From contig CAZPCN010000012.1 of the NCBI GenBank assembly GCA_964585095.1, forward strand, positions 3,430-67,429: DNA of 64,000 nucleotides. Reading direction: 5' to 3'. A model generated the notes under the pieces. It was not told the DNA's origin. It worked only from the letters and a program-made list of their open reading frames with translations, and ran no database searches. Every line of letters begins with the position of its first letter. Within the stretch, counting starts at the first letter, position 1. Shown piece after piece: positions 5,526-61,115 of the stretch. The DNA is from an uncultured Syntrophaceae bacterium (lineage in GTDB: Bacteria; Desulfobacterota; Syntrophia; Syntrophales; UBA2192). The translations under genes were made by a program, and so were the position numbers.

Positions 5526-5628
<103 letters not shown>

Positions 5629-40471: not shown

Positions 40472-41242
40472 ATGCGAAAAATTATATGTATTGCCAATCA
40501 GAAGGGAGGGGTCGGAAAGACCACGACAGCCATCAATCTGTCCTCGTCCCTCGCCACGGCGGAGAAAAGAGTCCTGCTCATCGACGGAGACCCCCAGGGC
40601 AATACAACGAGCGGGATGGGAATAGACAAGGCATCGATTGAAAACAGGAATCTTTACCATGCCCTCATCGGGCGATGCAGCCTCGAGGAAGTCATCGTCA
40701 AGACCCAGATCCCGACGCTCGACGTGGCCCCCTCGAACCAGGACCTCGTCGGCGTGGAAATCGAGTTCGTGTCCCTCGAGGAGCGGGAAAAGAAGCTCAG
40801 GGCCCTGCTGGCCGGACTGCAGACACCCTATGACTACTGTATCATCGACTGCCCGCCGTCACTGGGCTTTCTGACGCTCAACGCGCTCGTGGCGTCGGAC
40901 TACGTGATCATCCCGCTGCAGTGCGAGTATTTTGCCCTCGAGGGGCTCGCGCACCTGTTGAACACGGTCAAGCTCGTACGCTCCAGGATGAACCCGTCGC
41001 TTTCCCTCGGCGGGATCCTGCTCACCATGTTCGACGTTCGAAACCGTCTTTCTCACAGGGTCGTCGAGGAAGTGCGAAACCACTTCGGCGGCAAGGTGTT
41101 CAAAACGGTCATTCCGCGCAATGTCCGGATCTCGGAGAGCCCCAGCCACGGGCTCCCGATCATTCTCTACGACGTGAAGTCCCGCGGGGCCGTGGCCTAC
41201 ATGGATCTGGCCCACGAAATCCTCTACGACGGGAGAGCTTAG
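40472..41242 (+). CDS. parA: Chromosome partitioning ATPase ParA/Soj
   Basis: IANQKGGVGKTTT, DGDPQGN, IDCPPSLG, PLQCEYFALEG, IPRNVRISESPSHG. Confidence 0.97.
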   Translation: MRKIICIANQKGGVGKTTTAINLSSSLATAEKRVLLIDGDPQGNTTSGMGIDKASIENRNLYHALIGRCSLEEVIVKTQIPTLDVAPSNQDLVGVEIEFVSLEEREKKLRALLAGLQTPYDYCIIDCPPSLGFLTLNALVASDYVIIPLQCEYFALEGLAHLLNTVKLVRSRMNPSLSLGGILLTMFDVRNRLSHRVVEEVRNHFGGKVFKTVIPRNVRISESPSHGLPIILYDVKSRGAVAYMDLAHEILYDGRA

Positions 41243-41243
41243 G

Positions 41244-42092: not shown

Positions 42093-42217
42093 AAAAAGCT
42101 GAGGAAACACTGTACGTCAGTTTTTCCCTGAATCATTGCAAATTGATGGAACCGGGAGAGTTCTTTAGTTCCAGATATCAACAAATGTTTACACACTGTT
42201 TATAGGGAAGGGAAAAA

Positions 42218-43570: not shown

Positions 43571-43799
43571 CAGGGATGTCAACGGTCGATCTACAGGGAA
43601 CATCGAGGCAATCCGGTGTTTGGAAACGGGAATCGAAGTTGTTCACATATGAACAGACCCTATTACGAGTAATCCTGTCTTTCCTCTTTTTGTTATTAAG
43701 TTAGAGTAAATAGGACCTGTGGGATGTGTGGAAAGAGCGGGAATGGGACAGGCCTTGAGGTGAGCCACCGAAAACAAGTGATGGAAAGGAAACGGGCTT
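43571..43799. other. oriC: Replication origin oriC (dnaA-dnaN intergenic)
   Basis: DnaA-box-like TTGTTCACA (43639), TATGAACAG, TGTGGGATG (43718), TGTGGAAAG (43727); trio-like CTA-TTA-CGA-GTA; AT-rich core 43676-43712. Confidence 0.8.
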
Positions 43800-44921
43800 A
43801 TGGAATTCAGTGTGAAGCGTGACGTTTTCCTGGGCGGTGTTCAGAGGACTCTGGGTATTGTGGACAGGCGCACGTCGATGCCGGTGCTGAACAATGTTCT
43901 CATCCGGGCCGAGTCCGAACGGATCCGCATCGTGGCGACGGACCGGGAAATCGGTCTCATTGCGGACTACGAGGCGAAGGTCATCAAGGACGGCGAGATC
44001 ACGCTTCCGGCCCGCAAGCTCTACGAGATGATCCGGGAAATCCAGGGCGAGGAGGTTCTCTTCAAGAAAGAGGATTCGAACTGGGTGGCGATCACTTGCG
44101 GGAAGGTCAACTTCCGGGTTCCCGGCATCCCGGCGGAGGAATTTCCGAAGATCATGGACGACGAGGAAGTTGGGTTCATCCGAATCGACGGGGCCATGAT
44201 CAGCGACATGATCAAGAAGACCTACTTCGCCATGTCCACCGACGAATCGCGGGTCAACCTCAACGGGGTCTACCTGAAGGCGGAACAGGAGCCGTCGGGA
44301 GGGGTTATCATGCGCATGGTGGCGACCGACGGACACCGCCTCTCCATCGTGGGCGCCGACCCGAAGGTGGAGCAGGTCATGGAACTCGACAAGGGAATGA
44401 TCATCCCCCGGAAAGGAATCACCGAAATCCGGCGTCTTGTCGAGGACAAGGAAGGCTCCGTCGAGATCGGGGTGAAGAAGGGGATGTGCGTGCTGAAGAA
44501 GGACGGCATCATCCTGAAAGTGAGCCTCATCGACGCCGAGTTCCCCGATTACAAGCGCGTCGTCCCGAAGGACAAGGGCACCGTGGTCGAACTGGAACGC
44601 GCGGCGGTTCTCCACGCGCTTCGCAGGATGAGCGTCATGGCCAGCGAGCGCTACAACGGCGTCCGGATCAAATTGCTGACGGACAAGATGGTCTTCAACT
44701 CCATCAACCCCGATGTGGGCGAGGCCAGCGAGGAAGTGGAGATCCAGTACCAGGAAGGCGACGTCGAGGTGGGTTTCAACGTCCGTTACCTCCTGGAGGC
44801 CATCGAGGCCGTCGACGAGGAAAAGTTCACCCTGGAGATCCGCAGCGGCCTCAGGCCCGCCATGGTCAGGCCGGCGCAGGATCCGAGCTACATGTGCATC
44901 GTCATGCCATTAAAGATTTAG
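43800..44921 (+). CDS. dnaN: DNA polymerase III beta sliding clamp
   Basis: MPVLNNVL, VATDREI, TLPARKL, AMSTDESRVNLNG, VATDGHRL, EFPDYKRV, GFNVRYL, IVMPLK. Confidence 0.97.
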   Translation: MEFSVKRDVFLGGVQRTLGIVDRRTSMPVLNNVLIRAESERIRIVATDREIGLIADYEAKVIKDGEITLPARKLYEMIREIQGEEVLFKKEDSNWVAITCGKVNFRVPGIPAEEFPKIMDDEEVGFIRIDGAMISDMIKKTYFAMSTDESRVNLNGVYLKAEQEPSGGVIMRMVATDGHRLSIVGADPKVEQVMELDKGMIIPRKGITEIRRLVEDKEGSVEIGVKKGMCVLKKDGIILKVSLIDAEFPDYKRVVPKDKGTVVELERAAVLHALRRMSVMASERYNGVRIKLLTDKMVFNSINPDVGEASEEVEIQYQEGDVEVGFNVRYLLEAIEAVDEEKFTLEIRSGLRPAMVRPAQDPSYMCIVMPLKI

Positions 44922-44960
44922 CAGCAAGCCGCAAGCAACAAGGCAAAGAAGGAGTCGTGA

Positions 44961-47387
<2,427 letters not shown>

Positions 47388-47420
47388 GCGACCCGGTGAC
47401 CGGCGGCGCGTCCGGCCAAC

Positions 47421-47525
47421 GGAGAAGGTAAGAAGGTGAGAGGGTAAGAACGTTGGATGAGTCGGTGGCCGAAGTCATGCCCCCCGCTTCTCCAACCTTC
47501 TCACCTTCGTACCCTCTTACCCTCT
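47421..47525. repeat. Octamer inverted-repeat element
   Basis: GGTAAGAA-GGTGAGAG-GGTAAGAA-CGTTGGAT ... TTCTCCAACC-TTCTCACC-TTCGTACC-CTCTTACC. Confidence 0.78.
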
Positions 47526-47667
47526 ATCCGTCAGGGGGCCTTGCACCCGGGCATTTTTGACCAGCCCGAAAAAGAGGAGTGACACGAATCTGCCGGACGG
47601 CAGATCATCCTTTCAGCTCCCCCCACGGAAGGGGGGAATTTTGTTTCCCGAAGGAGAGTCTTTTTTC

Positions 47668-50166
47668 ATGGAGCTCTATCAGAAGAACATCCCGGTGAAC
47701 ATCGAAGACGAGATGAAGAAGTCCTACATGGACTACGCCATGAGCGTCATCATCGGGCGGGCCATACCGGACGTGCGCGACGGGCTCAAGCCCGTCCACC
47801 GGCGCGCGCTGTTCGCCATGCACGAGATGGGCAACCGCTGGAACCGGCCCTACAAGAAGTCGGCCCGCATCGTCGGCGACATCATCGGTAAGTATCACCC
47901 CCACGGCGATTCCGCCGCCTACGACACGATCGTGCGCATGGCGCAGGACTTCTCGCTTCGCTACCCGCTCGTCGACGGCCAGGGCAATTTCGGCTCCATC
48001 GACGGCGACCCGCCGGCGGCCATGCGATACACGGAGATCCGGATGTCCCGGATCGCCGAGGAGCTGCTGGAGGACCTCGAGAAGAACACCGTCGACTTCG
48101 CTCCCAACTACGACGGCTCCATGGAGGAGCCCGTGGTGCTGCCCTCGAGGCTGCCCATGCTGTTGCTGAACGGCACCTCGGGCATCGCCGTCGGTGTCGC
48201 CACCAACATCCCGCCCCACAACCTGGGCGAGATCGTCGACGGCACGGTGGCCCTCATCCGCAACCCGGAGATCCCCGTCGAGGGGCTCATGAAGCACATC
48301 CAGGGGCCCGACTTCCCCACGGCCGGCTTCATCAACGGCCGCGACGGGATCCTGTCGGCCTACCGCACGGGCCGGGGCACCGTGCGCATCCGCGCGCGGG
48401 CCATGGTGGAGCGCGCCAACCGCACCGACCGGGAGAGCATCGTCATCACCCAGCTGCCCTACCTCGTGAACAAGGCGAGCCTCATCGAGAAGATCTCGGA
48501 CCTCGTCAAGGAGCGCAAGATCGAGGGCATCGCCGACCTGCGCGACGAGTCGGACCGCGACGGGATTCGCATCGTCATCGACCTCAAGCGCGACGAGGTA
48601 TCGGGGGTCATCCTCAACCAGCTCTTCAAGCACACCCAGATGGAGAGCTCCTTCGGGATCAGCATGCTCGCCATCGACGCCGGCCAGCCGCGCGTCATGA
48701 ACCTCAAGGATGTGCTCCAGCGCTTTGTCGATTTCCGCAAGATCGTCGTCACCCGCAGGACGATCTTCGAGCTCAACAAGGCCAGCGAGCGGGCCCACAT
48801 CCTGGCAGGGCTCATCACGGCCCTGGACAACATCGACGCCGTCGTGGCCCTGATCAAGGCCTCCGAGACCCCTCAGGCGGCGGCCGAAGGGCTCATGACG
48901 AAGTTCGGTCTCTCCGAGGCGCAGGCCAAGGCGATTCTGGAGATGCGCCTGCAGCGGCTCACGGGGCTCGAACGCGGGAAGATCCTCGCGGAGCACGCCG
49001 AGCTCACGGAACTCATCGCGAAGCTCAAGGGCGTTCTCGAGGACCCCCAGAAGGTCCTGGACATCATCGTGGAGGAGCTCCTGGACTCGAAGAAACGCTT
49101 CGGCGACGAGCGCCGCACGGAGATCGTCGAGTCGACGGAGGACATCAACATCGAGGACATGATCGTCGAGGAGGACATGGTCGTCACCGTGTCCCACCAG
49201 GGCTACATCAAGCGCAACGCCGCAAGCCTCTACCGGATCCAGCGCCGCGGCGGCAAGGGCAAGATGGGCATGACCACGAAGGAAGAGGATTTCGTGGAGC
49301 ACATCTTCATCGCCTCGACGCACCACTACATCCTCATCTTCACGAACCAGGGGCGCGTCTACTGGCTCAAGGTCTACCAGATCCCGCAGGCGGGACGCGC
49401 CGCCAAGGGCAAGGCCATCGTGAACCTCGTCAACATGAACCCCGGCGAGAAGGTGGCCGCCATCCTGCCCGTGCGGGCCTTCGAGGAGAACAAGTTCGTC
49501 GTCATGGCCACGAAGAAGGGCATCATCAAGAAGACGGAGCTTTCCGCCTACTCCAACCCCCGCACCGGCGGCATCATCGCCATCAACGTCGAGGCGGGCG
49601 ACGAGCTGATGGACGTCAAGCAGACCAACGGGACCCAGGAGCTCTTCATGGGCACCCGCAAGGGCATGGCCATCCGCTTCAAGGAGGAGGATGTGCGGGC
49701 CATGGGCCGGACGGCCACGGGGGTCATCGGGATCCGGATGGACGAGGACGATCACGTGGTGGGCATGGAGATCCTCACCGAGGGCAACTCCATCATGACC
49801 GTCTCCGAGCGGGGCTATGGCAAGCGCACCGAGATCGAGGAGTACCGGCTCCAGAGCCGCGGCGGCAAAGGGATCCTGAATCTCAAGACCACCCCGCGGA
49901 TCGGTCTCGTCTCGGGCATCCGCCAGGTGACGGGAAACGAGGACCTGATGCTCATCAGCGACTCGGGCAACATCATCCGCATCCGCGTCGGCGAAGTCCC
50001 CGTGCTGCATCGCGTCACCCAGGGCGTCAAGCTCATCGATCTCGCGGAAGGCGAGAACTTCTCCGGCATCGCCCGGGTGGAGCGCGAAACCGAGGCGAAG
50101 AACGGGGACGATGCCGCCGAGGACGAGACGCTCTTCGACGCGGAGGACAACGGCGGCGAGGCCTGA
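47668..50166 (+). CDS. gyrA: DNA gyrase subunit A
   Basis: [35 protein letters not shown], GyrA box QRRGGKG, beta-pinwheel repeats. Confidence 0.98.
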
Positions 50167-50212
50167 TCCCGCAGTCCGGGGCGCCTCCGATTTCGGACAG
50201 GAGTGATCGAAG

Positions 50213-50698
50213 ATGGATTTCAAGTACCTGCAGGATTTTTTCTGGCCCGCCATCAAGGACCTGGAATCGGCGAAGAAGGCAGCCGAGCAGGGGTTCATGG
50301 CGGCCGTTCTTTACTTGATCCTTTCCTTCGGGGTCATTCTCTCCGCCCAGCCCCAGAAACTGCTGGACGTCCTCGTTGTGGCGCTCTGCGGCTACCTTGC
50401 GAAGAGGAAGCAATCCCGCATCGCGGCGGTCCTCGGGGCCCTCATGATGGCGCCGGAAGTCCTCTTCTCTTTGCAGGGAGGAGACATGCTGCGCATTCTG
50501 ACGGCCGGCATCCTGATGCTGCTGTTCGTCAACTCCGTCCGGGGGACGTTTATGTACCCGCGGTACGCGAAGGCGGCTCAGCCCCGCCCGACGGTGGAAG
50601 TTCTGCCGCCGGAGCCGCCTGCGGCGGCCCCCGAGACCCAGGGGCAGGCAGGCGAAGAGCAAAAGGCCGGAAGCGGGGACGATCGGGCGAAGCCGTAA
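50213..50698 (+). CDS. Hypothetical membrane protein (about 4 TM, low-complexity tail)
   Basis: Hydrophobic segments, SRIAAVLG, LFVNSVRGTF; AGGAG RBS. Confidence 0.75.
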   Translation: MDFKYLQDFFWPAIKDLESAKKAAEQGFMAAVLYLILSFGVILSAQPQKLLDVLVVALCGYLAKRKQSRIAAVLGALMMAPEVLFSLQGGDMLRILTAGILMLLFVNSVRGTFMYPRYAKAAQPRPTVEVLPPEPPAAAPETQGQAGEEQKAGSGDDRAKP

Positions 50699-50751
50699 GC
50701 CGGCTCGAGCACCCCCCTTGCGCACGCAGGGCAAGGGGAAACGTCGGAAAG

Positions 50752-50785
50752 AAAAAAACCGCCGTATCACTCCGGCGGTTTTTTC
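50752..50785. terminator. Bidirectional intrinsic terminator
   Basis: AAAAAAACCGCCG-TATCACTC-CGGCGGTTTTTTC between convergent genes. Confidence 0.85.
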
Positions 50786-50793
50786 GTCCCGGC

Positions 50794-52776
50794 TCAATGC
50801 GGCTGGATCTTGCCGCGAACCTTCGCCCCCGGCAGGACCGTGGAGGGTACGGTCGGCCGGCTTACCCAGTTCGTCGTGTCAAGGGTGAAGGCCCGGCTCG
50901 TGTAGATCATGTAGCTGCGGCCGAACTCGATTGTCTTGAGGTTGCCGGCGGTCTTCGGCTTTGCCAGGATGAGGAACTGCATCGGCCGGTCGAAGCTGAA
51001 GATGAGTCCCACGTAGGGGTTGCCCGCGTACGGCCCGAACACGGCGTTGACGGAGCGGTCCCCGGCGGGGAGCTTGTCGAACCGGACCGTGTTGTAGCCC
51101 TTGCGGAAGGCGATCGAGGTCGGGACGACGATCTTCTCCATGTAGGAGACCGGGACGGCGGCGGGGGCGGCCTCCGAGACCTCCACGACATCGGGGTCCA
51201 CCTGTGCGCGGTAGCCGATCTTGAGTTTGTGGATGAAATACTTGCCCGCCTTCGAGACCTGCGAGGCGAACCTTCCCGCCGAGTCGGTGGTGTAGTCGCC
51301 CAGGACCTGCCCGAGTTCGTCCTTCACGGTGATGCTGACGCCCTCCAGCCCAGCGCCCTGCGGGAGTTCCTGCACGGTGCCGTTGATGAAGAACTCCGTC
51401 ACGGGACGCGGGACGGCCCCGTCCGGACCGTACTTGATAAGGACGGCATCCCAGAGGCCGAGGGACGGCCCGCTCATGGCACCGGCGGTCAGAGCGGCTA
51501 CATAAACGGCCCCTGTCGGGTCCAGGGCGATCCCGTAACCCCAATCCAGATCCGCCGTGCCGGTCAGGCGGGTATAGACCCTGCGGCCGTCCTCCGGTGC
51601 GAGACGGGACAGGAAAATATCGGCTCTGCCGAGAGGCGTCTGCCCGTCCAGTCCCCTGCCCGAGGCGGAGGGTTCCGTGACCCCGGTGACGTAGATGCTC
51701 CCTTCGGCGTCGACGGCGACCCCGTGGGCGGTGTCATGACCGTCCGTGCCGTATTGGTGTGTCCAGAGCAAAGCCAGGTTTCGATCGAATTTCGCGAGAA
51801 TGATGTCGTCGGCACCCGACGAGGTGTTTCCTTCGAAGTTTCCCTGCGTGGAGCCGGCGACGATGACGTTCCGGCTTCTGTCCACGGCGATGGCCAGCCC
51901 CTGGTCTTTATCGCTTCCCTTGTTCGGACCGCCCAGGGTCACCGTCGCCAGGGGCTCAAAATCGTAACTGAACTTGGCGACAAACAGCGACCCCTGCAGG
52001 TTGCCGGAAACGAGACCGGTGACGAACACGTTGGAGAAGCTGTTCGGGGATTCGACAGCCACCGCGTAAGCCGCAGTGCCTGTCGGGTTGGAAGCGACAT
52101 TGAACTGGGTCACCCAGTTCATCCAGTCCCCCTCGGAACTGAGCCGCATAAGAAAAGCTTCCGGAGTGGAGCGGGTGACCGCGGAGCTGCCGAATGTCCC
52201 GGTCGTCGATCCGGCCAGATAGATCATGCTGCTGGCGTCGGTTGCGATCCCGTTTGCGTAATCGTTTCCAGGTGTCCCGTGCTGCTTGATCCAGTTGACC
52301 GTCCCGCTGGCGGGATGGATCTTCGCCACAAAGATGTCCGTCGTGCCCTCGGCACCGGCGTTTGCATTCCGCCAGCCCTGCATCCCTCCGGGCATGGCCC
52401 CCTTCGTCCAGCCCGTCACATAAAGGGTGAGAAAGCCGGACGGCGATCCCAGGGCAACCCCCCCGATATTGTCTTCCGCCGATGAGCCGAATTGGCTGAC
52501 CCAGAGCAGCGCGCCGGAGGGATCGAACTTTGCGACGAAGATGTCCGTGCTCCCGCTGTTCGTGTTCGGCGTGGCCGGTGCCGGTGCGCTGAAAGCACCC
52601 ATGGTCATGCCTGCCACATAGACATTCCCCTCGGAGTCGGTCACGGTTTTCATCGCATAGTCGTAGTTGTCCGAGCCGAACTGCTTGATGTACAGCGGCG
52701 CGGTCTGGGCAAGAGCGGACGATGCGGCCAACAGCGCGAGCAGAACAACGGCCAGGACGATGGTGCGGGTTTTCAT
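50794..52776 (-). CDS. Secreted SBBP-repeat beta-propeller protein with C-terminal beta-sandwich domains
   Basis: Signal peptide MKTRTIVLAVVLLALLAASSALA; repeats DSEGNVYVAG, DASSMIYLAG, DRSRNVIVAG, DAEGSIYVTG, DPTGAVYVAA with DIFVAKF; then GTV...LEGVSITV...TTDSAGRF. Confidence 0.85.
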   Translation of the reverse strand: MKTRTIVLAVVLLALLAASSALAQTAPLYIKQFGSDNYDYAMKTVTDSEGNVYVAGMTMGAFSAPAPATPNTNSGSTDIFVAKFDPSGALLWVSQFGSSAEDNIGGVALGSPSGFLTLYVTGWTKGAMPGGMQGWRNANAGAEGTTDIFVAKIHPASGTVNWIKQHGTPGNDYANGIATDASSMIYLAGSTTGTFGSSAVTRSTPEAFLMRLSSEGDWMNWVTQFNVASNPTGTAAYAVAVESPNSFSNVFVTGLVSGNLQGSLFVAKFSYDFEPLATVTLGGPNKGSDKDQGLAIAVDRSRNVIVAGSTQGNFEGNTSSGADDIILAKFDRNLALLWTHQYGTDGHDTAHGVAVDAEGSIYVTGVTEPSASGRGLDGQTPLGRADIFLSRLAPEDGRRVYTRLTGTADLDWGYGIALDPTGAVYVAALTAGAMSGPSLGLWDAVLIKYGPDGAVPRPVTEFFINGTVQELPQGAGLEGVSITVKDELGQVLGDYTTDSAGRFASQVSKAGKYFIHKLKIGYRAQVDPDVVEVSEAAPAAVPVSYMEKIVVPTSIAFRKGYNTVRFDKLPAGDRSVNAVFGPYAGNPYVGLIFSFDRPMQFLILAKPKTAGNLKTIEFGRSYMIYTSRAFTLDTTNWVSRPTVPSTVLPGAKVRGKIQPH

Positions 52777-52936
52777 GGCTTCCCTCCTGAGGCGCCCAGC
52801 GGCTCCATGACGAGCGGGTGTGCGGGTGGTCACGACGGGAACGGGGCATTCATGCGGGAAAGGATCGGGGATGCGAGGCGGGGCGCCGGAGGCAGCCCCC
52901 GGGCCCGGGCGTCCGGGATCGGTCGGCTGCTCGGCT

Positions 52937-53033
52937 CGCCTGGCAGCCCTGCAGCCCTATCCCGCGTGTTCCCGGGACGTAGGCCATGAGGCTTTGCGCC
53001 CCATCCTTTCGGACGGTTTGCCCTTTTCAGGCG
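52937..53033 (-). ncRNA. Cyclic di-GMP-I (GEMM-I) riboswitch
   Basis: Minus strand CGCCTG-AAAA-GGGCAAACC-GTCC-GAAA-GGAT-GGGGCGCAAAGCC...GGGCTGC-CAGGCG: GNRA loop, conserved GGCAAACC and GCAAAGCC, P1 CGCCTG/CAGGCG. Confidence 0.9.
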
Positions 53034-53044
53034 CGTCAATTCTG

Positions 53045-53071
53045 ATATCGGCCGAACTGTGGAAAACTTTA
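53045..53071 (-). promoter_or_regulatory. Sigma-28 (FliA) promoter for the riboswitch-SBBP transcript
   Basis: Minus strand TAAAGTTT-N11-GCCGATAT versus consensus TAAAGTTT-N11-GCCGATAA; P1 of the riboswitch starts 12 nt downstream. Confidence 0.85.
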
Positions 53072-53101
53072 GCCGGCCGGGTAAGAAAAGGGTCTGCTGT
53101 G

Positions 53102-53117
53102 TGGTACGGAATTTGCT
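53102..53117 (+). promoter_or_regulatory. Sigma-54 promoter upstream of the response regulator
   Basis: TGGTACG-GAAT-TTGCT with exact GG-N10-GC spacing. Confidence 0.8.
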
Positions 53118-53274
53118 AATTTGCACGGTGAAACCGATCGGTTGTGCATCACGGCCGCACCCGGTGCTTTCTCCGCGGGCTGCGGCGCGGGGCATCTCCA
53201 ATCCCGGAAGGCAGGTGGAAGATGAACCTGAGAGAATCGACGGCTGCACGATCTCCGATTGCAAGGGGAGGAGT

Positions 53275-53659
53275 CATGGTCCAGCGACCGAAAGTGCTCA
53301 TGATCGACGACAACAAGGAAATCTGTCGTCTGATGAAGGAATACCTCGAAAAAACGGGGAAATACGAAGTGACGACCTTCACCGACGCGAGAATGGGGGT
53401 CCGTTACGCCCAGATCGAGAGGCCCGACGTGATCCTGATGGATCTCATGATGCCGGACATGGACGGCACGGAAGCCGCCGAATACCTCCTCGATGACGAG
53501 GGGACCCGGACCATCCCCCTCATCTTCATCACGGCGGCGATCAAGAAGGACGAAGCGGAAGAGCGCCTCGGCCAGATACACGGCCACCCCATCCTGGCCA
53601 AGCCCGTCACCCCTGTCGAGGTGATGAACGAGATCGAAAAGATCCTCACCCTGACCTGA
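53275..53659 (+). CDS. Single-domain response regulator (REC)
   Basis: KVLMIDD, DVILMDLMMPDMDG (phospho-Asp), FITA, LAKP; GGAGGAG RBS. Confidence 0.93.
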
Positions 53660-53679
53660 GACCAATCCCCCGGATACAG

Positions 53680-53714
53680 CAAAAAGGCAGCGCCCCGATC
53701 GCGCTGCCTTTTTG
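53680..53714. terminator. Bidirectional intrinsic terminator
   Basis: CAAAAAGGCAGCGC-CCCGATC-GCGCTGCCTTTTTG. Confidence 0.88.
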
Positions 53715-53737
53715 CGTCGTTCCATCCTGGCTTTCGC

Positions 53738-56569
53738 TTACATTTTCATGACCGTGACGGCGTCCTCGAGGCTGATGACCCCCTGGAGCACCTTGTTGAT
53801 AGCGTCCTGCTTCAGCGGGCGGAAATTGCCGTCCCGCTCCGCGACGGTCTTGATCTCGGCCGCGTCGGCGCCCTTGAGGATCGCCTCCCGCAGCCCGTTG
53901 TCGTTTACGAGGATTTCGAAGAGGGCCGTGCGGCCCTTGAACCCCGTGTTCTTGCAGGCCGGGCAGCCCGCCCCGCGGAAGAACCGGCCGCCCGCCATCG
54001 ATTCCATGCCCAGGGAAGCCAGAACCTGCTCGGAGGGCTCGTAGGGTTCCCTGCAGGCGGGACAGATCGTCCGCACGAGCCTCTGCGCAATCGATGCCGA
54101 AAGGGCCGAGGCCAGCGGGAAGCGGTCCACCCCCATCTCGACGAGGCGGGCGATGGCGCCTGCCGCATCCGATGCCGGGAGGGTGCTGAGGAACCGGTGG
54201 CTCGAGAGGGCTGTCTGCACGGCAAGCGACGCCGACTCCCCGTCGCGGATTTCCTCGAGGTAGACCACGTCGGGGTCCTGCTTCAGGATCAGGCGCAGGT
54301 TCGCTGCCAGGGTCGCCCCGGCCGCCCGGTTGAATTCGATCTGGGTCACCCCCGCGATCGGGTATTTGACGGGGTCCTCCAGGGTGAAGATCTCCGCGTC
54401 GGGCGTCACCATCCGGCGGAGCATGGCGTACAGGGTGGTGCTCTTGCCGCTTCCCTCGGGGCCGGACACGACGACGAGCCCCTGCGGCTTCTCCAGGATG
54501 TCGCCGAGACTGTCGAGGTCCTTCGGGGAGAGGCCCAGCTGTTCCAGGCCGATGGAATTCGTGCTGAGATCCGTCAGGTGCAGGATGAGGCTTTCGCCGT
54601 GGATGCTCGGGATGGAGGAGACCTGGACGCTGATGTCCCGGTCCCCGACCTTCTCCACGAAGCGGCCCTCCTGGGGGACTCCGCGGACGCTCGAGTCGAT
54701 GTTGGCGATGTCCTTGACCCAGGTGATCACGGGGATCGACATGGACTTCGGCAGGTCCGGCAGGTCATGAGTCGATCCGTCGACGCGGAACCGGACGCGG
54801 ACGTTCTTCGTCTGCGGGGTGATGTGGATGTCCGTCGCTCCCTCGCGGACGGCCTGCGCGATCAGCGTTTCGATGAAGCGGTCCGCCGGGTCGCCGTTTT
54901 CGGGGCCTGAGGGCGCCGGGTTGGCGCGTTGTGACGCCGCGGCCGGCTGCTGGCGTGCCTCGGAGGAGTAGCTGCCGGCGGGCATGTCGTAGATGAGGCC
55001 CATGAGCCGGTCGAACTCGCGCTCGGTGCAGATCACCGGCGCAACCCCCTCTTCCGACTGCATCCTGAGCAGGTCGAGGGCGTAGCGATTGGTGGGGTCC
55101 GGCATGGCCACGACGAGGTGGCGGGCGGTCTTCCTCAACGGCGCTGCCTGGTACTTCCGGGCGAAATCCATGGGGATGAGCCTCGAGAGGCTCAGGTCGA
55201 CGGGGTACTTGTCGGGCAGATAGCGCTCGATCCGGAGCTGGTGGCTCAGGATGTCCACGATCTGGGAGTCCCGGAGGAACCCCTGCTGGACGAGAAGCTT
55301 GCCGAGCCGCAGCCCCGTATACCGCTGGGCCGCGAGGGCTTCCTCAAGCTGGCTTTCGTCGAGCAGCCGCGCTTCCATGAGCAGCTCGCCCAGCTTCTTC
55401 CACTGTCCGTCGACGACCTCCAGCTCCGTCGGCGCCGACTTTCCGGCCTCGAGCTCGGTGATGAACTCGGGGAAGTCGCCCTCGATCAGGGTCTGTTCCT
55501 TCGCCACCGATGCGGCCCTCAGGAGGATTTTCTCCAGCTCCGCCACGTTGCCCGGCCAGGTGTATTCGAGGAACCGGTCCATCACTTCCCGCGTGACGCC
55601 GTGGAGACCCTTGCGAAATTCCTGGTTGATGAGCTGGATGAAGTAGTCCACGAGCAGGGGGATGTCCTCCTTGCGCTCGCGAAGGGGCGGCACGTACAGG
55701 GTGACCACATTGAGACGGTAGTAGAGATCGTCCCGGAAGGTGCCTTCCTTGATCATTCCCCGGATGTCCCTGTCGGTCGAGGCGATGACCCGCGCGCCGA
55801 GCGGGAGCTTGTCACGGCCCCCGATGCGTTTGAATTCGCCCGTTTCGAGGACCCGCAGCAGGCGGGCCTGGAGGTTCAGGGGCAGAGCGGAGACCTGGTG
55901 CAGGTAGAGGGTGCCGTTGCCGGCCTCCTCGAATTTCCCGATCTTGCGGCTCGTGGCGCCCGTGTAGGACCCCTTTTCGTAGCCGAACAGCTCGGCTTCC
56001 AGGACCTGCTCCGCGAGGCCCTCGCAGTTGACGATTACGAAAGGCTCGTTCTTCGCCGTGAAATTGTGGAATGTCTTGGCCAGGAGCGACTTGCCCGTCC
56101 CCGTCTCGCCCAGGATGAGCACGGTGCGATCCTCGGGCCGGATCATCATGATCTGGTTGAAAAGAATGCGGACACGCTTGCCCTGGCCGATGAATTCCGG
56201 GAAGAGGACCTTCCCCTCCACCTTGCTCAGCAAGTCGCTGACCTGTTCGAAGACGACGTTGAACTCCTTCAGGTCGTCCCCCTTGCTCTTCGGCTTCCCG
56301 TTGCCCTGCCTCGACACGGCGGGGATGGATTTCATCTTCGCGATGAAGCTCTTCATCGGCTTCAGCAGGAGCCACGTGATGAGCAGCGCGCACAGGAAGG
56401 AAAACGCCCCGATCCCGATTCCCCACCATTTCAGGTACAGTTCCGGATTGGGGATCAGGTTCGTGTATTTCAGGATCTGGTGGGTCGTGATGACGGAAAG
56501 CAGGGCGATCCCGCCGAAGATGATCGGGACGAGGACGTAGAGACTGATGTTGAAGCGGGGGTGTTTCAT
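53738..56569 (-). CDS. Fusion: 2 TM, HAMP-like, sigma-54 activator AAA+ domain, MshEN, GspE/PilB-type ATPase (both ATPase domains degenerate)
   Basis: One uninterrupted 943-aa ORF: GETGTGKS, ELFGYEKGSYTGA, DLYYRLNV, WPGNVAEL; KLGELL...LAAQ...RLGKLLVQQG...LSHQ; ATDIHI, RFRVDG, PQEGR, GPEGSGKST, EDPV, QDPDVVYLEEIRD, CPAC x2. Confidence 0.88.
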   Translation of the reverse strand: MKHPRFNISLYVLVPIIFGGIALLSVITTHQILKYTNLIPNPELYLKWWGIGIGAFSFLCALLITWLLLKPMKSFIAKMKSIPAVSRQGNGKPKSKGDDLKEFNVVFEQVSDLLSKVEGKVLFPEFIGQGKRVRILFNQIMMIRPEDRTVLILGETGTGKSLLAKTFHNFTAKNEPFVIVNCEGLAEQVLEAELFGYEKGSYTGATSRKIGKFEEAGNGTLYLHQVSALPLNLQARLLRVLETGEFKRIGGRDKLPLGARVIASTDRDIRGMIKEGTFRDDLYYRLNVVTLYVPPLRERKEDIPLLVDYFIQLINQEFRKGLHGVTREVMDRFLEYTWPGNVAELEKILLRAASVAKEQTLIEGDFPEFITELEAGKSAPTELEVVDGQWKKLGELLMEARLLDESQLEEALAAQRYTGLRLGKLLVQQGFLRDSQIVDILSHQLRIERYLPDKYPVDLSLSRLIPMDFARKYQAAPLRKTARHLVVAMPDPTNRYALDLLRMQSEEGVAPVICTEREFDRLMGLIYDMPAGSYSSEARQQPAAASQRANPAPSGPENGDPADRFIETLIAQAVREGATDIHITPQTKNVRVRFRVDGSTHDLPDLPKSMSIPVITWVKDIANIDSSVRGVPQEGRFVEKVGDRDISVQVSSIPSIHGESLILHLTDLSTNSIGLEQLGLSPKDLDSLGDILEKPQGLVVVSGPEGSGKSTTLYAMLRRMVTPDAEIFTLEDPVKYPIAGVTQIEFNRAAGATLAANLRLILKQDPDVVYLEEIRDGESASLAVQTALSSHRFLSTLPASDAAGAIARLVEMGVDRFPLASALSASIAQRLVRTICPACREPYEPSEQVLASLGMESMAGGRFFRGAGCPACKNTGFKGRTALFEILVNDNGLREAILKGADAAEIKTVAERDGNFRPLKQDAINKVLQGVISLEDAVTVMKM

Positions 56570-56952
56570 GGATTCTCACCTTGTGTTACAGGGCAACAGG
56601 ATTACCACAGGCATCAGCCGGACCGTTCCCCGGACGGACACGCAACGGCCCCGGCCCCTTCCCGCGATCCATGACCGGGGGAAATAAGGAGGCGGCGAAA
56701 CGCTCTGTCCAGGCGCCTTGCACGATAACAAACCCGGCTGGTTTTGCAATACGGCACCAGTATGATTTCGTTCTACGAGAATAGTATGACTGCTTCCGTT
56801 TATCGGACTCGTTCTCCCTCAAATGGATCGCAGGGGTCACTAACAGGAGTCGCGAGAAGAAGTGAAGAGAGTATCCAGCGTCGCGCTCGAGGAACGAGCC
56901 TGTCACACATGGCGAGAATTACTGCACGAAATGTACCAAAAAACGTCTGTTT

Positions 56953-57384
56953 TCACAAGGATGGATTGCGGTTCCCCCGTTCGGACAGCCTGACGGCCCT
57001 GCCGGCCAGCCGGACGACCCCCGCCCGCACGGCCCCTCGTTCATGGCGGACCTCCACGACGGCATCCGCCCCGAGGGCAAGGGCCCTCCTCATCAGGAGG
57101 ATCATGGCCCTCTTCTCGGCGACCCCGAGGAATCCGGCACCAGCCGAACCCTCGGCGACGACCGGGCCGAGATCCTTGCCCTTCCCCCTGCCGGGGACGT
57201 CAGGTGTCGTGACGATCTCGACCTTCTGTCGGAGGGCTTCCATCTCCTCCGCAATCGCGGCCAGAGCCGCCTGCCGCTCCCGTTTGCGCCGCACTTCGCG
57301 GATGACGAGGGCGTAGACCAGCAGAAAGGGGATCGCGACGAGAATCGCCGATCCGATGTATCCGAGGACCGCATCGAGACTCAT
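56953..57384 (-). CDS. Small membrane protein with YbjQ/UPF0145-like C-terminal domain
   Basis: N-terminal TM and coiled segment, IVTTPDVPG, RALALGADAVVEVR...LAGRAVRL. Confidence 0.6.
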   Translation of the reverse strand: MSLDAVLGYIGSAILVAIPFLLVYALVIREVRRKRERQAALAAIAEEMEALRQKVEIVTTPDVPGRGKGKDLGPVVAEGSAGAGFLGVAEKRAMILLMRRALALGADAVVEVRHERGAVRAGVVRLAGRAVRLSERGNRNPSL

Positions 57385-57411
57385 GGTTCATGACCCCCCT
57401 TTGGCCGAGGA

Positions 57412-58587
57412 TCAGCCTTCGGGCCCGTCCTTTTTCCCTTTCGGGCTTTTCCGGCTCATCATGTCCCCGAGGGAGCCGAAGCCCTTGGTCCCCTTCTGCT
57501 GGAGGAAGGGACGAAAGGAGTCCTCCTGTTCCTCCTCGGGCACCACGGGCGAGAGCGAGAGACGCCGCTTTGCCCGGTCCGATGTTTCCACCACGACCTC
57601 GATCGTGTCCCCCTGGGCGAGTACCTCCCTCGGGTGTCGGATCTTCTTGCCCCGGGACAGCCTGGAGATCGGGATCAGCCCGTCGACCCCGGGCTCGAGG
57701 GTTATGAAGGCCCCGAAGTCGGCAAGTCTCGCGACGGTGCCCTGGTGGCGGGAACCGTCCGGGTATCGGGTCTCCACGTTTTCCCAGGGATCCGGCAGGG
57801 TTCCCTTCACGCTCAGGGTGATGCGGTCTTTTGCCCAGTCGATGCCGAGGATGAGCGCCTCGATCGTCTGCCCCACGGTGAAGCGGTCGCGGATGTCCTC
57901 GACGCGGCCCCAGCCGACCTCGGAGATGGGCAGCAGGGCCTCGATGCCCCCGATGTCGACGAATGCGCCGAAATCCCTCAGGGAACGAACCGTGCCCGTC
58001 ACCAACATCCCTTCCCGGAGTGTTCCCTTGATGGCATCTCTTCTCTTTCGCTCTTCCTCTTCGAGGATCCTCCGTCGAGACAGGATGATCCGCCGGCCCC
58101 GCTCTCCGTACTCGATGATGATGAACGGGAGGCGCTGACCGATGAAGGCCGCCGTCGTCTCCCCGCGGGGAATACCGGACTGGGAGAAGGGGCAGAACGC
58201 CCGGTAGGTGCCGGCGATGCGGACCTCGAGCCCCCCCTTGACTTCCTTTTCCACGATTCCCTCTACGGGGATTGCATTCTGCCAGGCTTCCTCGAGGTAC
58301 TGACGCGCGGCATCCCCGGAGACCCTCGTTGTGAAAACCCTCTCACCGTGTCGCGACGAGAGGAAATAGACTTTTACGGTGTCGCCTTCCTTTACGGTCA
58401 GCTCCCCTTCCTTGTCGAGGAACTCGTTACGCTCGACGATGCCTTCCGTCTTGCCGCCGAGATCGATGAACACCCAATCCGACGTGATCTTGGCGATCAC
58501 CGCCTCAACGCTCTGCCCCTGCTTGAGCCTCACCGGCTTGCGCTCGGAGGCTTCCAGGAGTTCAGCGAAACTTTTCTCTTCTTCCAT
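57412..58587 (-). CDS. Short (4-domain) ribosomal protein S1 paralog
   Basis: SFAELLE, VFIDLGGKTEG, VKGGLEV, RAFCPFSQ, DFGAFVDIGGIEALLPISE, DFGAFITL..GVDGLIPIS. Confidence 0.88.
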   Translation of the reverse strand: MEEEKSFAELLEASERKPVRLKQGQSVEAVIAKITSDWVFIDLGGKTEGIVERNEFLDKEGELTVKEGDTVKVYFLSSRHGERVFTTRVSGDAARQYLEEAWQNAIPVEGIVEKEVKGGLEVRIAGTYRAFCPFSQSGIPRGETTAAFIGQRLPFIIIEYGERGRRIILSRRRILEEEERKRRDAIKGTLREGMLVTGTVRSLRDFGAFVDIGGIEALLPISEVGWGRVEDIRDRFTVGQTIEALILGIDWAKDRITLSVKGTLPDPWENVETRYPDGSRHQGTVARLADFGAFITLEPGVDGLIPISRLSRGKKIRHPREVLAQGDTIEVVVETSDRAKRRLSLSPVVPEEEQEDSFRPFLQQKGTKGFGSLGDMMSRKSPKGKKDGPEG

Positions 58588-60261: not shown

Positions 60262-60295
60262 AAAAAAAGACCCCGTTTTGCAACGGGGCTTTTTC
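60262..60295. terminator. Bidirectional intrinsic terminator (7 T on minus strand)
   Basis: AAAAAAAGACCCCG-TTTTGCAA-CGGGGCTTTTT. Confidence 0.75.
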
Positions 60296-60415
60296 TTACA
60301 GGGGGGGAGGGAGACGACCCTGTGCGGGTCGCCTCCCTGGAGGAGATCGTTAGTTTCTGGTTTTCCGTTTTGCGCTTTTCTCGGTTTCCTGTCACTCGAG
60401 CTGTCAATCGAGTTG
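60262..60415 (-). ncRNA. Candidate sigma-54-dependent small RNA (about 150 nt)
   Basis: Bounded by a sigma-54 promoter and a U7 terminator; no RBS-led ORF fits; hairpins CTCGA/TCGAG and GGGAGGCGACCC/GGGTCGTCTCCC. Confidence 0.55.
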
Positions 60416-60426
60416 ATTCTCAGTAT

Positions 60427-60442
60427 TGCACCTCCCGTGCCA
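60427..60442 (-). promoter_or_regulatory. Sigma-54 promoter pointing away from archease-rtcB
   Basis: Minus strand TGGCACG-GGAG-GTGCA with exact GG-N10-GC spacing; palindrome CATCGA-AAAA-TCGATG at 60573-60588 as a possible activator site. Confidence 0.75.
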
Positions 60443-60663: not shown

Positions 60664-60693
60664 TTGACAGGCCTGTGCCCTTGTCACTAGAAT
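60664..60693 (+). promoter_or_regulatory. Sigma-70 promoter of archease-rtcB (probably leaderless)
   Basis: TTGACA-N18-TAGAAT, then 5 nt, then ATG at 60699; no SD sequence. Confidence 0.7.
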
Positions 60694-60698
60694 CGATC

Positions 60699-61115
60699 AT
60701 GAAGCCCTATAAAACTTTCGACCATACGGCCGACCTCGGTCTTACCGTCACGGGGCAGAGCGCGGGAGAACTTTACGCAAACGCGGCGGTTGCCGTTTTC
60801 GACATGATCACCGACCTCGGGCGCGTGGAACCCCGGGAGACCCGCCGGATCACCGTGGAGGGCGACAGCCCGGAGGATCTGATCATCAACTTCCTTCGCG
60901 AAATCCTTTACCTCTATAATGGGGAACGCTGGCTGCTCAGGGAAATCCGTGTCACGATGATCGGGGACACAGGGATCGAGGCCGAGGTCTTCGGGGAGCC
61001 CCTCGATCTGCAGAAGCACGAGATATGCAAAGAAATCAAGGCAGTAACCTATCACCAGGCCAGTGTGCGCAAGGTGCCGGGGGGCTGGGAGGCAAGGGTG
61101 ATCTTCGATGTCTGA
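60699..61115 (+). CDS. Archease (RtcB activator)
   Basis: YKTFDHTADLG, IKAVTYHQ, ARVIFDV; overlaps the rtcB start. Confidence 0.95.
   Translation: MKPYKTFDHTADLGLTVTGQSAGELYANAAVAVFDMITDLGRVEPRETRRITVEGDSPEDLIINFLREILYLYNGERWLLREIRVTMIGDTGIEAEVFGEPLDLQKHEICKEIKAVTYHQASVRKVPGGWEARVIFDV

What the first reader, a model, noticed from the sequence alone, without database searches (positions are those of the whole stretch)
50794..53737. Three-input regulatory hub: sigma-28 plus c-di-GMP riboswitch control a secreted beta-propeller, back to back with a sigma-54-driven response regulator
Seen: within about 500 bp there is a near-perfect sigma-28 promoter (TAAAGTTT-N11-GCCGATAT) placed so transcription starts just before a c-di-GMP-I aptamer, leading to a 660-aa secreted SBBP-repeat protein. 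Thirty nt away on the other strand is a textbook sigma-54 promoter for a lone REC protein, which converges on the MshEN fusion through a shared terminator. Inference: together with the fusion gene this looks like a self-contained motile/sessile or cell-contact module, with c-di-GMP read at both RNA and protein level. In a syntroph the propeller could be a partner-attachment adhesin.
Basis: partly seen in the sequence, partly recalled or inferred. Interest (0 to 1): 0.72.

Follow-up and report, generated by a model that had tools for sequence, protein, structure and literature searches.

The report
Sigma-28 promoter plus c-di-GMP riboswitch unit
A flagellar-type (sigma-28) promoter feeds straight into a standard c-di-GMP-sensing RNA switch in front of an exported beta-propeller gene of a Syntrophales bacterium; every part is a known kind, this promoter-plus-switch pairing turns out to be common in environmental bacteria, and the idea that the three neighbouring genes form one module is only weakly supported.

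Summary
These are a canonical c-di-GMP-I aptamer (67.5 bits), a near-consensus sigma-28 promoter ending 4-6 nt before it, a 660-aa exported SBBP propeller, a divergent sigma-54 promoter for a lone REC protein, and a bidirectional terminator shared with the MshEN fusion gene.

In orthologous Syntrophales loci both promoters are conserved while their spacers and flanks drift. A capped metagenome scan shows the same sigma-28 promoter followed by a c-di-GMP-I riboswitch in at least 63 loci (37 sequence clusters, 35-74% GC). There it precedes fliD, flgM, rod, pilin, protease and propeller genes. The pairing is therefore a widespread design, not a peculiarity of this locus.

The "self-contained three-gene module" is only partly supported:
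- Synteny holds only within one narrow clade (GyrB at least 91% identical, apart from the split hit in L013), where everything is syntenic.
- In the next clade (44% identity) the fusion gene stands alone.
- REC and the fusion do share an unusual TGGTAC sigma-54 promoter type.

Whether c-di-GMP turns the gene on or off, the adhesin role, and the presence of fliA could not be established. The fusion itself is the oddest item nearby: a membrane-anchored, Walker-B-degenerate sigma-54 activator domain joined to MshEN and a PilB-like ATPase.

The parts
53064..53071 (-). sigma-28-type -35 box TAAAGTTT
   Evidence: Matches the consensus 8 of 8. Mean pairwise identity among orthologs is 0.91, against 0.44 for the 20 nt upstream and 0.56 for the spacer.
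53045..53052 (-). sigma-28-type -10 box GCCGATAT (11-nt spacer); predicted start about 53037-53039
   Evidence: Ortholog identity is 0.76 against 0.56-0.60 around it. The same -10/-35 pair precedes GEMM-I aptamers in at least 63 metagenomic loci.
52939..53032 (-). c-di-GMP-I (GEMM-I) aptamer. P1 is CGCCUG 53028-53033 pairing with CAGGCG 52937-52942. G20 equivalent at 53022.
   Evidence: RF01051, 67.5 bits. Present in every ortholog that has upstream sequence. A compensatory C-G to U-A change in L010 falls at the pair equivalent to Vc2 C22-G45 (read from the alignments); one search also tabulates a compensatory G-C to A-U change at aptamer columns 47/93.
52877..52940 (-). conserved expression-platform hairpin; the base of its stem (GGCG:CGCC) uses the 3' strand of P1
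   Evidence: RNAalifold consensus, columns 99-162, one compensatory pair. It forms in all constrained folds. No U-tract follows it.
52808..52885 (-). C-rich, G-poor leader tract (40 C, 14 G in 78 nt); candidate Rho-loading (rut) site containing the UUCCCGUC anti-SD candidate
   Evidence: Top 0.2% of all 78-nt windows on both strands. The UUCCC.UC: GG.GGGAA pairing is kept in 7 of 8 orthologs, with one compensatory change. The function is inferred.
52782..52788 (-). Shine-Dalgarno AGGAGGG, 5 nt before the ATG at 52776
   Evidence: Read. The GGAGGG core is invariant and the first A (AAGG in L004) is in 7 of 8 aligned orthologs.
50794..52776 (-). exported SBBP-repeat protein, 660 aa: signal peptide 1-23, seven-bladed propeller about 28-455, Ig-like domain 462-535, unassigned C-terminal domain 540-660
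   Evidence: Pfam. AlphaFold model, mean pLDDT 80. Closest solved fold is the CylK propeller, 26% identity, E 7e-26. The full-length architecture is found only in Syntrophales-type hits.
50751..50785 (.). bidirectional intrinsic terminator between ORF161 (+) and the SBBP gene (-)
   Evidence: -21.6 and -24.9 kcal/mol with A7 and U6-7 flanks.
53102..53117 (+). sigma-54-type promoter TGGTAC-N5-TTGCT; predicted start about 53128-53130
   Evidence: Ortholog identity is 0.88 for the -24 box and 1.00 for the -12 box, against 0.46-0.59 for flanks and spacer.
53276..53659 (+). stand-alone receiver (REC) protein, 127 aa, with D11 D12 D56 T86 K109; a possible longer form starts at the in-frame ATG 53222
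   Evidence: Pfam Response_reg. Residues were read from the translation. The upstream ATG and 18 codons with mostly synonymous differences occur in all orthologs but L010.
53679..53715 (.). bidirectional intrinsic terminator shared by REC (+) and the fusion gene (-)
   Evidence: 15-bp stem, about -29 kcal/mol on both strands, z about -6.
53738..56569 (-). context gene, 943 aa: two TM helices, sigma-54-interaction AAA+ domain (GSYTGA loop, Walker B HQ), MshEN, then a PilB/GspE-type ATPase
   Evidence: Pfam. Alignment A3. Homolog survey.
56923..56938 (-). second TGGTAC-type sigma-54-like promoter, upstream of the fusion gene
   Evidence: TGGTACATTTCGTGCA, conserved in all six aligned sequences (the window and five orthologous loci, including L010). 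It is one of the 3 matches against 0.12 expected.

Best explanation
The region holds two back-to-back but separately wired transcription units.

Unit 1 (minus strand). An RNA polymerase holoenzyme carrying a FliA-like sigma-28 factor starts about 53038, a few bases before a canonical c-di-GMP-I riboswitch. The 265-nt leader then decides whether the exported SBBP propeller is made. Expression therefore needs two conditions in series: an active sigma-28 and the permissive c-di-GMP state. This is one instance of a widespread sigma-28 promoter / c-di-GMP-I riboswitch design, which elsewhere fronts late flagellar genes, pilins and secreted proteases or propellers.

The leader has no intrinsic terminator. 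Ligand-stabilised P1 competes with the base of a conserved hairpin. The aptamer core competes with a downstream UGCCC. My inference is that c-di-GMP binding frees a C-rich tract that loads Rho and/or keeps the Shine-Dalgarno sequence paired. That would make it an OFF switch, with the protein made in the sigma-28-active, low-c-di-GMP (motile-phase) state. I hold that direction at about 55-60%.

Unit 2 (plus strand). A sigma-54 promoter drives a phosphorylatable single-domain response regulator. It ends at a bidirectional terminator shared with the convergent fusion gene, which has the same TGGTAC-type sigma-54 promoter. REC and the fusion are thus probably co-regulated by sigma-54.

Shown: the motifs, their conservation, the aptamer class, the domain content and the wide recurrence of the tandem. 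Inferred: the sigma factor identities, the start sites, the switch direction, Rho involvement and every physiological role.
For: - Aptamer class and ligand-contact bases (PMC6140456).
- Single near-consensus sigma-28 site in the window.
- Footprints: promoter boxes 0.76-1.00 identical among orthologs against 0.44-0.60 for spacers and flanks (alignment).
- The riboswitch is present upstream of every SBBP ortholog that has upstream sequence, down to 40% protein identity.
63 of 117 have T[AC]AA[GC] at spacer 10-13, against 0 of 117 at control offsets. 46 match at least 6 of 8 bases of TAAAGTTT, against 0 and 3 in the two controls.
- 20 of 20 tested loci carry a GEMM-I clan aptamer. The strict hits fall into 37 sequence clusters.
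- Downstream genes include FliD, FlgM, a rod protein, pilins, S8 proteases and an NHL propeller.
- No sigma-70-like promoter is found in 50000-57500.
- Platform features.
- Three TGGYAY-N5-KTGCW sites against 0.12 expected, two of them flanking the REC/fusion pair.
- A sigma-54-interaction domain is encoded next door. On my general knowledge, such domains are found in genomes that also have rpoN.
Against: - No start site was observed. Low-depth metatranscriptome unitigs overlap both promoters (one piece 52902-53052, one starting at 53062). This could be DNA carry-over or read-through, and it does not confirm the predicted starts.
- No fliA, flagellar, chemotaxis or rpoN gene lies in the 64-kb window, and the rest of the genome could not be searched.
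- Constrained folding gave no consistent difference in SD accessibility between P1-enforced and free states, so the OFF call rests on competing pairings read from the alignment.
It shows recurrence, not frequency.
Confidence: 0.65

Rival explanations
1. SBBP, REC and the MshEN fusion form one self-contained motile/sessile or cell-contact module that reads c-di-GMP at RNA and protein level. The propeller would be a partner-attachment adhesin induced by c-di-GMP.
For: - The three genes are adjacent in every locus of the window's clade.
- The MshEN motifs fit the c-di-GMP-binding consensus.
- REC and the fusion share a promoter type.
- The propeller region evolves faster (mean identity 0.58) than the C-terminal domain (0.69), as might suit a surface-exposed head.
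Against: - That clade is so narrow that gyrB, gyrA and ORF161 are equally syntenic.
- The 44%-identity fusion clade has none of the partners nearby.
- SBBP uses a different sigma factor from REC and the fusion.
- There is no anchoring or adhesin domain hit. The nearest solved fold is an enzyme, CylK.
- The same sigma-28/riboswitch tandem occurs elsewhere without REC or fusion genes.
Confidence: 0.15
2. Same architecture, but the riboswitch is an ON switch. c-di-GMP binding opens the leader, so SBBP is made during the motile-to-attached transition, when sigma-28 is still active and c-di-GMP is rising.
For: - Folding does not discriminate the two states.
- On my general knowledge, GEMM-I switches of both polarities are known.
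- Pilins and proteases, typical surface-phase products, also sit behind the tandem elsewhere.
Against: - Both alternative pairings seen in the alignment release C-rich RNA when the aptamer is ligand-bound. These are the hairpin base against P1, and the aptamer GGGCA against the downstream UGCCC.
- Elsewhere the same tandem fronts fliD, flgM and rod genes. On general knowledge, c-di-GMP usually represses such genes.
Confidence: 0.3
3. The sigma-28-like motif is not used by a flagellar sigma factor. Either the lineage has no flagella and a related group-3 sigma factor with another regulon reads it, or the real promoter lies elsewhere.
For: - There are no flagellar or fliA genes in the window.
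- The papers I could read did not settle whether this Syntrophales lineage is flagellated.
- In Bdellovibrio, FliA-type promoters control many non-flagellar surface proteins and proteases (PMC3627812).
Against: - Both boxes are conserved with the right spacing across orthologs.
- The identical design precedes bona fide flagellar genes in other lineages.
- No alternative promoter was detected.
Confidence: 0.12
4. The aptamer senses 3',3'-cGAMP rather than c-di-GMP, as many GEMM-I RNAs of Geobacter do.
For: The lineage was formerly classed with the Deltaproteobacteria, where cGAMP-sensing GEMM-Ib variants are common (PMC8835794).
Against: The base equivalent to Vc2 G20 is G in the window and in all orthologs (AAAAGGGCAAAC). 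cGAMP sensors carry A there (PMC6140456).
Confidence: 0.05

Closest known systems
Vibrio cholerae Vc2 and other c-di-GMP-I (GEMM-I, RF01051) riboswitches
   Same: Full-length match to the family model. GNRA tetraloop hairpin. G20, A47 and C92 equivalents present. Sits in the 5' leader of a gene for an exported protein.
   Different: A long (about 160 nt), GC-rich expression platform without a terminator. A sigma-28-type promoter lies directly upstream. The downstream gene is a lineage-specific SBBP propeller.
Clostridioides difficile Cd1 riboswitch upstream of the flgB flagellar operon
   Same: Both couple c-di-GMP sensing by a class I riboswitch to the flagellar regulatory hierarchy. On my knowledge Cd1 is an OFF switch, the polarity I favour here.
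   Different: Cd1 lies behind a housekeeping-type promoter and controls the operon that encodes SigD. Here the sigma-28-type promoter itself precedes the riboswitch, and the product is not a flagellar part.
FliA (sigma-28) attack-phase regulon of Bdellovibrio bacteriovorus (PMC3627812)
   Same: FliA-type promoters (TTAAG-N16-CCGATA) drive non-flagellar cell-surface proteins and proteases. A c-di-GMP riboswitch RNA is expressed in the same phase.
   Different: In that study the riboswitch RNA (merRNA) is not listed as having a FliA promoter and precedes no gene. Here promoter, riboswitch and ORF are in series.
MshE/PilB-type ATPases with an MshEN c-di-GMP receptor domain (PMC5013675)
   Same: The neighbouring fusion keeps both 24-residue motifs with the 5-residue spacer, followed by a T2SSE ATPase domain with a Walker A motif and tetracysteine motif.
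   Different: It is preceded by two TM helices and a sigma-54-interaction AAA+ domain. The His-box histidine is replaced. No pilus or secretion genes are nearby.
Bacterial enhancer-binding proteins (NtrC/PspF class)
   Same: The fusion carries the Sigma54_activat AAA+ core and lid, a Walker A motif, a GAFTGA-like loop (GSYTGA) and an arginine-finger region.
   Different: Walker B Asp-Glu is replaced by His-Gln or Asn-Gln in the window's clade. There is no HTH DNA-binding domain. The protein is membrane-anchored.

Membership tests
c-di-GMP-I riboswitch (Rfam RF01051) | Covariance-model score above the curated gathering score over the full model | tested here: met
   67.5 bits against 35, model positions 1-87. 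Orthologs score 67-79 bits.
c-di-GMP-I riboswitch (Rfam RF01051) | Ligand-contact bases G20, A47 and C92 (Vc2 numbering). An A at position 20 marks cGAMP sensors. | tested here: met
   AAAAGGGCAAAC gives G at the G20-equivalent position. GCGC-AAAGCC gives A47. UGCC gives the C92 equivalent (alignment; rule from PMC6140456). The mapping to Vc2 numbering is my own.
c-di-GMP-I riboswitch (Rfam RF01051) | Helices supported by compensatory changes | tested here: inconclusive
   Only two compensatory pairs among eight close orthologs: columns 19/42 in L010 (read from the alignments) and 47/93 (tabulated). Most pairs never vary.
c-di-GMP-I riboswitch (Rfam RF01051) | Binds c-di-GMP and changes expression of the downstream gene | not testable with these tools
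   Needs in-line probing or ITC and reporter assays.
Sigma-28 (FliA) dependent promoter | TAAAGTTT-N11-GCCGATAA with correct spacing at a sensible distance from the transcript's first element | tested here: met
   15 of 16 bases, 11-nt spacer. The -10 box ends 11 nt before P1.
Sigma-28 (FliA) dependent promoter | Conservation of both boxes beyond the background | tested here: met
   0.91 and 0.76 against 0.44-0.60. The design recurs in 63 of 117 metagenomic hits against 0 of 117 controls.
Sigma-28 (FliA) dependent promoter | Cognate sigma factor encoded in the genome; transcription start at the predicted place | tested here: inconclusive
   No fliA in the window, and the rest of the genome is out of reach. 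RNA contigs give no start sites.
Sigma-54 dependent promoter | GG at -24 and GC at -12 with the exact spacing, conserved | tested here: met
   TGGTACGGAATTTGCT. -24 box 0.88 and -12 box 1.00 identity. 3 sites against 0.12 expected.
Sigma-54 dependent promoter | An enhancer-binding activator with its upstream binding site; rpoN in the genome | not tested
   No activator site was identified; the only inverted repeats lie inside the leader and aptamer DNA. rpoN was not searched for. The adjacent sigma-54-interaction domain is indirect support only.
SBBP beta-propeller proteins (PF06739) | SBBP repeats forming a propeller | tested here: met
   Pfam 91.7 bits. Confident propeller model covering residues about 28-450. 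Matches the CylK propeller.
Adhesin or surface-anchored protein | A recognisable anchoring, sorting or adhesion domain, or demonstrated surface location | tested here: not met
   No such family found in Pfam or NCBIfam, including the C-terminal 125 aa at E up to 10. The C-terminal model has low confidence.
Response regulator receiver (PF00072) | Receiver fold with the acidic pocket, the phospho-acceptor Asp, and conserved Thr and Lys | tested here: met
   78 bits. D11, D12, D56, T86 and K109 were read from the translation.
MshEN c-di-GMP receptor domain | [quoted passage not shown] | tested here: met
   KLGELLMEARLLDESQLEEALAAQ - RYTGL - RLGKLLVQQGFLRDSQIVDILSHQ (motif from PMC5013675). The first motif has K for R and R for G, both within the paper's relaxed pattern only for the first. 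Binding was not tested.
Bacterial enhancer-binding protein (the fusion as activator of the REC promoter) | Catalytic Walker B Asp-Glu and a DNA-binding domain | tested here: not met
   Walker B reads LHQV or LNQV in the window's clade, against LDEI or LDDI in the 44% clade. There is no HTH_8 hit.

The most novel reading that the evidence does not exclude
REC and the membrane-anchored fusion form a c-di-GMP-responsive sigma-54 control loop. The ATPase-dead, GAFTGA-bearing AAA+ domain would hold sigma-54 at the membrane. The MshEN domain (via c-di-GMP) and the phosphorylated REC would tune that hold. The loop would set transcription of its own two TGGTAC-type promoters, while the same c-di-GMP pool gates the sigma-28-driven SBBP through the riboswitch. 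This would be a three-sigma-input decision circuit private to one Syntrophales lineage.
Probability: 0.08. Interest if true: 0.8.

Novelty: new member of a known kind. Interest (0 to 1): 0.45.

Why it matters
For this organism, it assigns an otherwise anonymous, fast-evolving exported propeller to the sigma-28 / c-di-GMP lifestyle circuit of a syntrophic bacterium. That gives a concrete handle for asking what these bacteria display or release in the motile versus attached state.

More generally, the scan shows that a flagellar-type promoter feeding directly into a c-di-GMP-I riboswitch recurs across many unrelated environmental bacteria. It stands in front of fliD, flgM, rod, pilin, protease and propeller genes. 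I did not find this described in the papers I could search. If a proper census confirms it, RNA-level c-di-GMP gating of the late flagellar regulon would be a common design rule rather than a collection of single cases.

Tried and rejected
1. Start-site mapping from public metatranscriptomes. Only low-depth assembled contigs exist for this sequence. They have no direction and overlap the promoters, so they are uninformative.

2. Predicting ON versus OFF by constrained folding of eight orthologous leaders. There was no consistent change in SD accessibility.

3. A search for an intrinsic terminator in the leader found none. The consensus scan gave no more hits than shuffles.

4. Looking for fliA, rpoN or flagellar genes in the window found none among about 50 annotated ORFs. 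The literature searches did not settle whether this Syntrophales clade is flagellated.

5. Using a FlgM locus from the metagenome scan as a proxy for Syntrophales. It turned out to belong to Armatimonadota.

6. Assigning the SBBP C-terminal domain. There was no family hit even at E = 10, and the model has low confidence.

7. The distinction between RF03167 (c-di-GMP-I-GGC) and RF01051. One ortholog and many scan hits score best with RF03167, yet all carry A at the A47 position because of the search pattern. I could not find the variant's definition in the papers held, so I draw no conclusion from it.

8. A search for an activator-binding inverted repeat upstream of the sigma-54 promoter. Nothing could be separated from the aptamer DNA.

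Full report
**What is there**

The window is 62% GC. Its closest relatives in the reference-genome collection are all MAGs labelled Syntrophaceae, Syntrophales, Syntrophobacterales or uncultured delta proteobacterium.

The finding lies next to the replication-origin gene set. The order is parA-parB-dnaA-dnaN-gyrB-gyrA-ORF161 on the plus strand, then the SBBP gene on the minus strand, REC on the plus strand, and the fusion gene, a 143-aa ORF and an S1-domain protein on the minus strand. No flagellar, chemotaxis, pilus, fliA or rpoN gene is present anywhere in the 64 kb.

**Checking the observation**

- Rfam places a full-length c-di-GMP-I aptamer at 52939-53032 on the minus strand (67.5 bits, gathering score 35).
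- Immediately upstream is TAAAGTTT-N11-GCCGATAT (53045-53071, minus). It is the only site in the window within three mismatches of the sigma-28 consensus, with 0.09 expected.
- The -10 box ends 11 nt before helix P1 (CGCCUG 53028-53033 pairing with CAGGCG 52937-52942). A start about 53038 would leave 4-6 nt before the aptamer.
- The downstream ORF (50794-52776) encodes 660 aa with SBBP repeats and a CarboxypepD_reg-like domain. It has a Sec-type signal peptide ending ALA/QT.
- The structure model is confident for a propeller (residues about 28-450) and an Ig-like domain. It is poor for the last 120 residues. The nearest solved fold is the propeller of the enzyme CylK at 26% identity. No adhesion or anchoring domain was found.
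- Thirty bases from the sigma-28 -35 box, on the other strand, is TGGTACGGAATTTGCT (53102-53117), a sigma-54-type site.
- It is followed by a 127-aa receiver protein with all five signature residues.
- REC and the convergent fusion gene share a 15-bp, A5/U5-flanked hairpin of about -29 kcal/mol on both strands.

**Is it more than chance?**

Twelve related loci were recovered. In all that extend far enough, the order gyrB-gyrA-ORF161-SBBP-riboswitch-REC-fusion is kept, and the aptamer is present.

In the aligned intergenic region the promoter boxes stand out from their surroundings:

| Element | Mean pairwise identity |
|---|---|
| Sigma-28 -35 box | 0.91 |
| Sigma-28 -10 box | 0.76 |
| Sigma-28 spacer | 0.56 |
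| Sigma-28 flanks | 0.44-0.60 |
| Sigma-54 -24 box | 0.88 |
| Sigma-54 -12 box | 1.00 |
| Sigma-54 spacer and flanks | 0.46-0.59 |

This is the pattern expected of working promoters.

A tighter sigma-54 pattern (TGGYAY-N5-KTGCW) has three matches in the window against 0.12 expected. One is the REC site. One lies upstream of the fusion gene (56923-56938) and is conserved in every ortholog. The third is at 60427-60442.

**The tandem is a common design**

I scanned the metagenome collection for a sigma-28 -10 box (GCCGATA) within 4-34 nt of the conserved 5' half of a GEMM-I aptamer.

- Of 117 loci with enough upstream sequence, 63 carry T[AC]AA[GC] at a 10-13-nt spacer, against none at control offsets.
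- 46 match at least 6 of 8 bases of TAAAGTTT, against 0 and 3 in the two controls.
- The 63 fall into 37 sequence clusters, and the 117 scored loci they come from have 35-74% GC.
- All 20 loci tested contain a GEMM-I clan aptamer at the gathering score.
- The first ORFs downstream include a flagellar rod protein, FliD, FlgM, several N-methyl pilins, S8 subtilases, an M73 peptidase, a CAP-domain protein, an HDOD protein, an fn3 protein and an NHL-repeat propeller.
- The FlgM example belongs to Armatimonadota, so the design spans phyla.

This strengthens the promoter assignment here. It also means the window's arrangement is one member of a widespread class. I did not find this regularity described in the papers I could search. 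The nearest is Bdellovibrio, where FliA-type promoters drive many surface proteins and a riboswitch RNA is co-expressed, but that RNA is not listed with a FliA promoter (PMC3627812). The scan was conditioned on the -10 box and truncated, so it shows recurrence, not frequency.

**Which ligand, and which way does the switch go?**

The base aligned with Vc2 G20 is G, and the A47 and C92 equivalents are present. cGAMP-sensing relatives carry A at position 20 (PMC6140456). c-di-GMP is therefore the likely ligand.

The 160-nt expression platform has no terminator-like U-tract. Three features are conserved:

- A long hairpin (about 52877-52940) whose basal GGCG:CGCC pairs use the 3' strand of P1.
- A C-rich, G-poor tract (52808-52885; 40 C against 14 G, top 0.2% of windows).
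- A UUCCCGUC segment complementary to the invariant GGAGGG core of the Shine-Dalgarno sequence, with one compensatory change.

The consensus fold also pairs the aptamer's GGGCA with a downstream UGCCC. Both alternative pairings would be broken by ligand binding, which would free C-rich RNA. I therefore lean towards an OFF switch acting through Rho loading and/or SD occlusion.

This is inference. Constrained folding of eight orthologs showed no consistent change in SD accessibility.

**Is it one module?**

The loci come from genomes mostly with 90-97% identical GyrA and GyrB, in which the housekeeping neighbours are just as conserved.

The full fusion architecture is confined to Syntrophales-type sequences and splits into two clades. 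The 44%-identity clade has the fusion between an MFS transporter and a radical-SAM gene, with no REC, SBBP or riboswitch within 10 kb.

In the window's clade the sigma-54-interaction domain reads HQ or NQ where Walker B should be DE. The other clade keeps DE or DD. The protein has no DNA-binding domain. It is therefore unlikely to be the conventional activator of the REC promoter.

What does link REC and the fusion is the shared, slightly unusual TGGTAC -24 box. SBBP is wired to a different sigma factor. It evolves much faster (40-95% identity against 78-98% for REC and the fusion). The same promoter-riboswitch tandem works elsewhere without these neighbours. I conclude there are two adjacent units rather than one hub. 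REC and the fusion are possibly a pair.

**What could not be settled**

- The available RNA data are low-depth assembled contigs without strand information. They cover all three genes and also overlap both promoters. They neither confirm nor refute the start sites.
- The presence of fliA could not be tested.
- rpoN is supported only indirectly, by three sigma-54-type sites and a sigma-54-interaction domain.
- The adhesin idea remains speculation.

**Verdict**

The parts are all of known kinds, and the locus is a new member of the c-di-GMP-I riboswitch family in a sigma-28-driven setting that proves to be common.

The more unusual items are side findings: the breadth of the sigma-28/riboswitch tandem, and the membrane-anchored, Walker-B-degenerate sigma-54-activator/MshEN/PilB fusion.

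Noticed in passing
window 53738-56569 (-): The 'fusion' is a 943-aa protein with two TM helices, a sigma-54-interaction AAA+ domain, MshEN and a PilB/GspE-type ATPase. This full architecture was found only in Syntrophales-type sequences. In the window's clade Walker B of the first ATPase is HQ or NQ instead of DE, and the His-box histidine of the second is replaced. There is no DNA-binding domain and no pilus genes are nearby.
   Followed up: partly
window 56740-56938 (-): The fusion gene has a roughly 340-nt leader. It contains a conserved sigma-54-like site (56923-56938), a sigma-70-like TTGCAA-N16-TATCGT, and an 80-nt highly conserved element (about 56740-56830). The latter is partly shared with the 44%-identity clade but deleted in L010. 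There is no Rfam match.
   Followed up: partly
window 60266-60442 (-): A third sigma-54-type site (TGGCACGGGAGGTGCA) precedes a roughly 150-nt stretch with no credible ORF. It folds strongly (z = -4.8) and ends in a GC hairpin plus U-run. It is a candidate sigma-54-dependent small RNA, divergent from the archease-rtcB operon at 60675-62550.
   Followed up: partly
L019-L138 (metagenome loci): A sigma-28-type promoter directly followed by a GEMM-I aptamer recurs in at least 63 loci (37 clusters, 35-74% GC, including Armatimonadota). It precedes fliD, flgM, rod, pilin, S8/M73 protease, CAP, HDOD, fn3 and NHL-propeller genes.
   Followed up: partly
window 53222-53275 (+): An in-frame ATG 54 nt upstream of the called REC start has its own purine-rich stretch. 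It adds 18 codons whose differences among orthologs are mostly synonymous. It is absent from L010, where the sigma-54 site sits about 30 nt from the start codon. REC may be 145 aa in most members.
   Followed up: partly
L013:1-10000: One MAG contig carries the unit glutaredoxin / S1 protein / ORF143 / fusion / REC / riboswitch twice in tandem. The junction lies exactly at the SBBP Shine-Dalgarno sequence, and one fusion copy has a frame break. This is either a real duplication or a long-read assembly artefact.
   Followed up: partly
window 40472-50166 (+): parA, parB, dnaA, dnaN, gyrB and gyrA lie in a row, so the finding sits beside the probable replication origin.
   Followed up: no
window 5527-5624, 6931-7022, 7226-7317 (-): The only other Rfam matches in the window are a small SRP RNA and two long-variable-arm tRNAs.
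   Followed up: no
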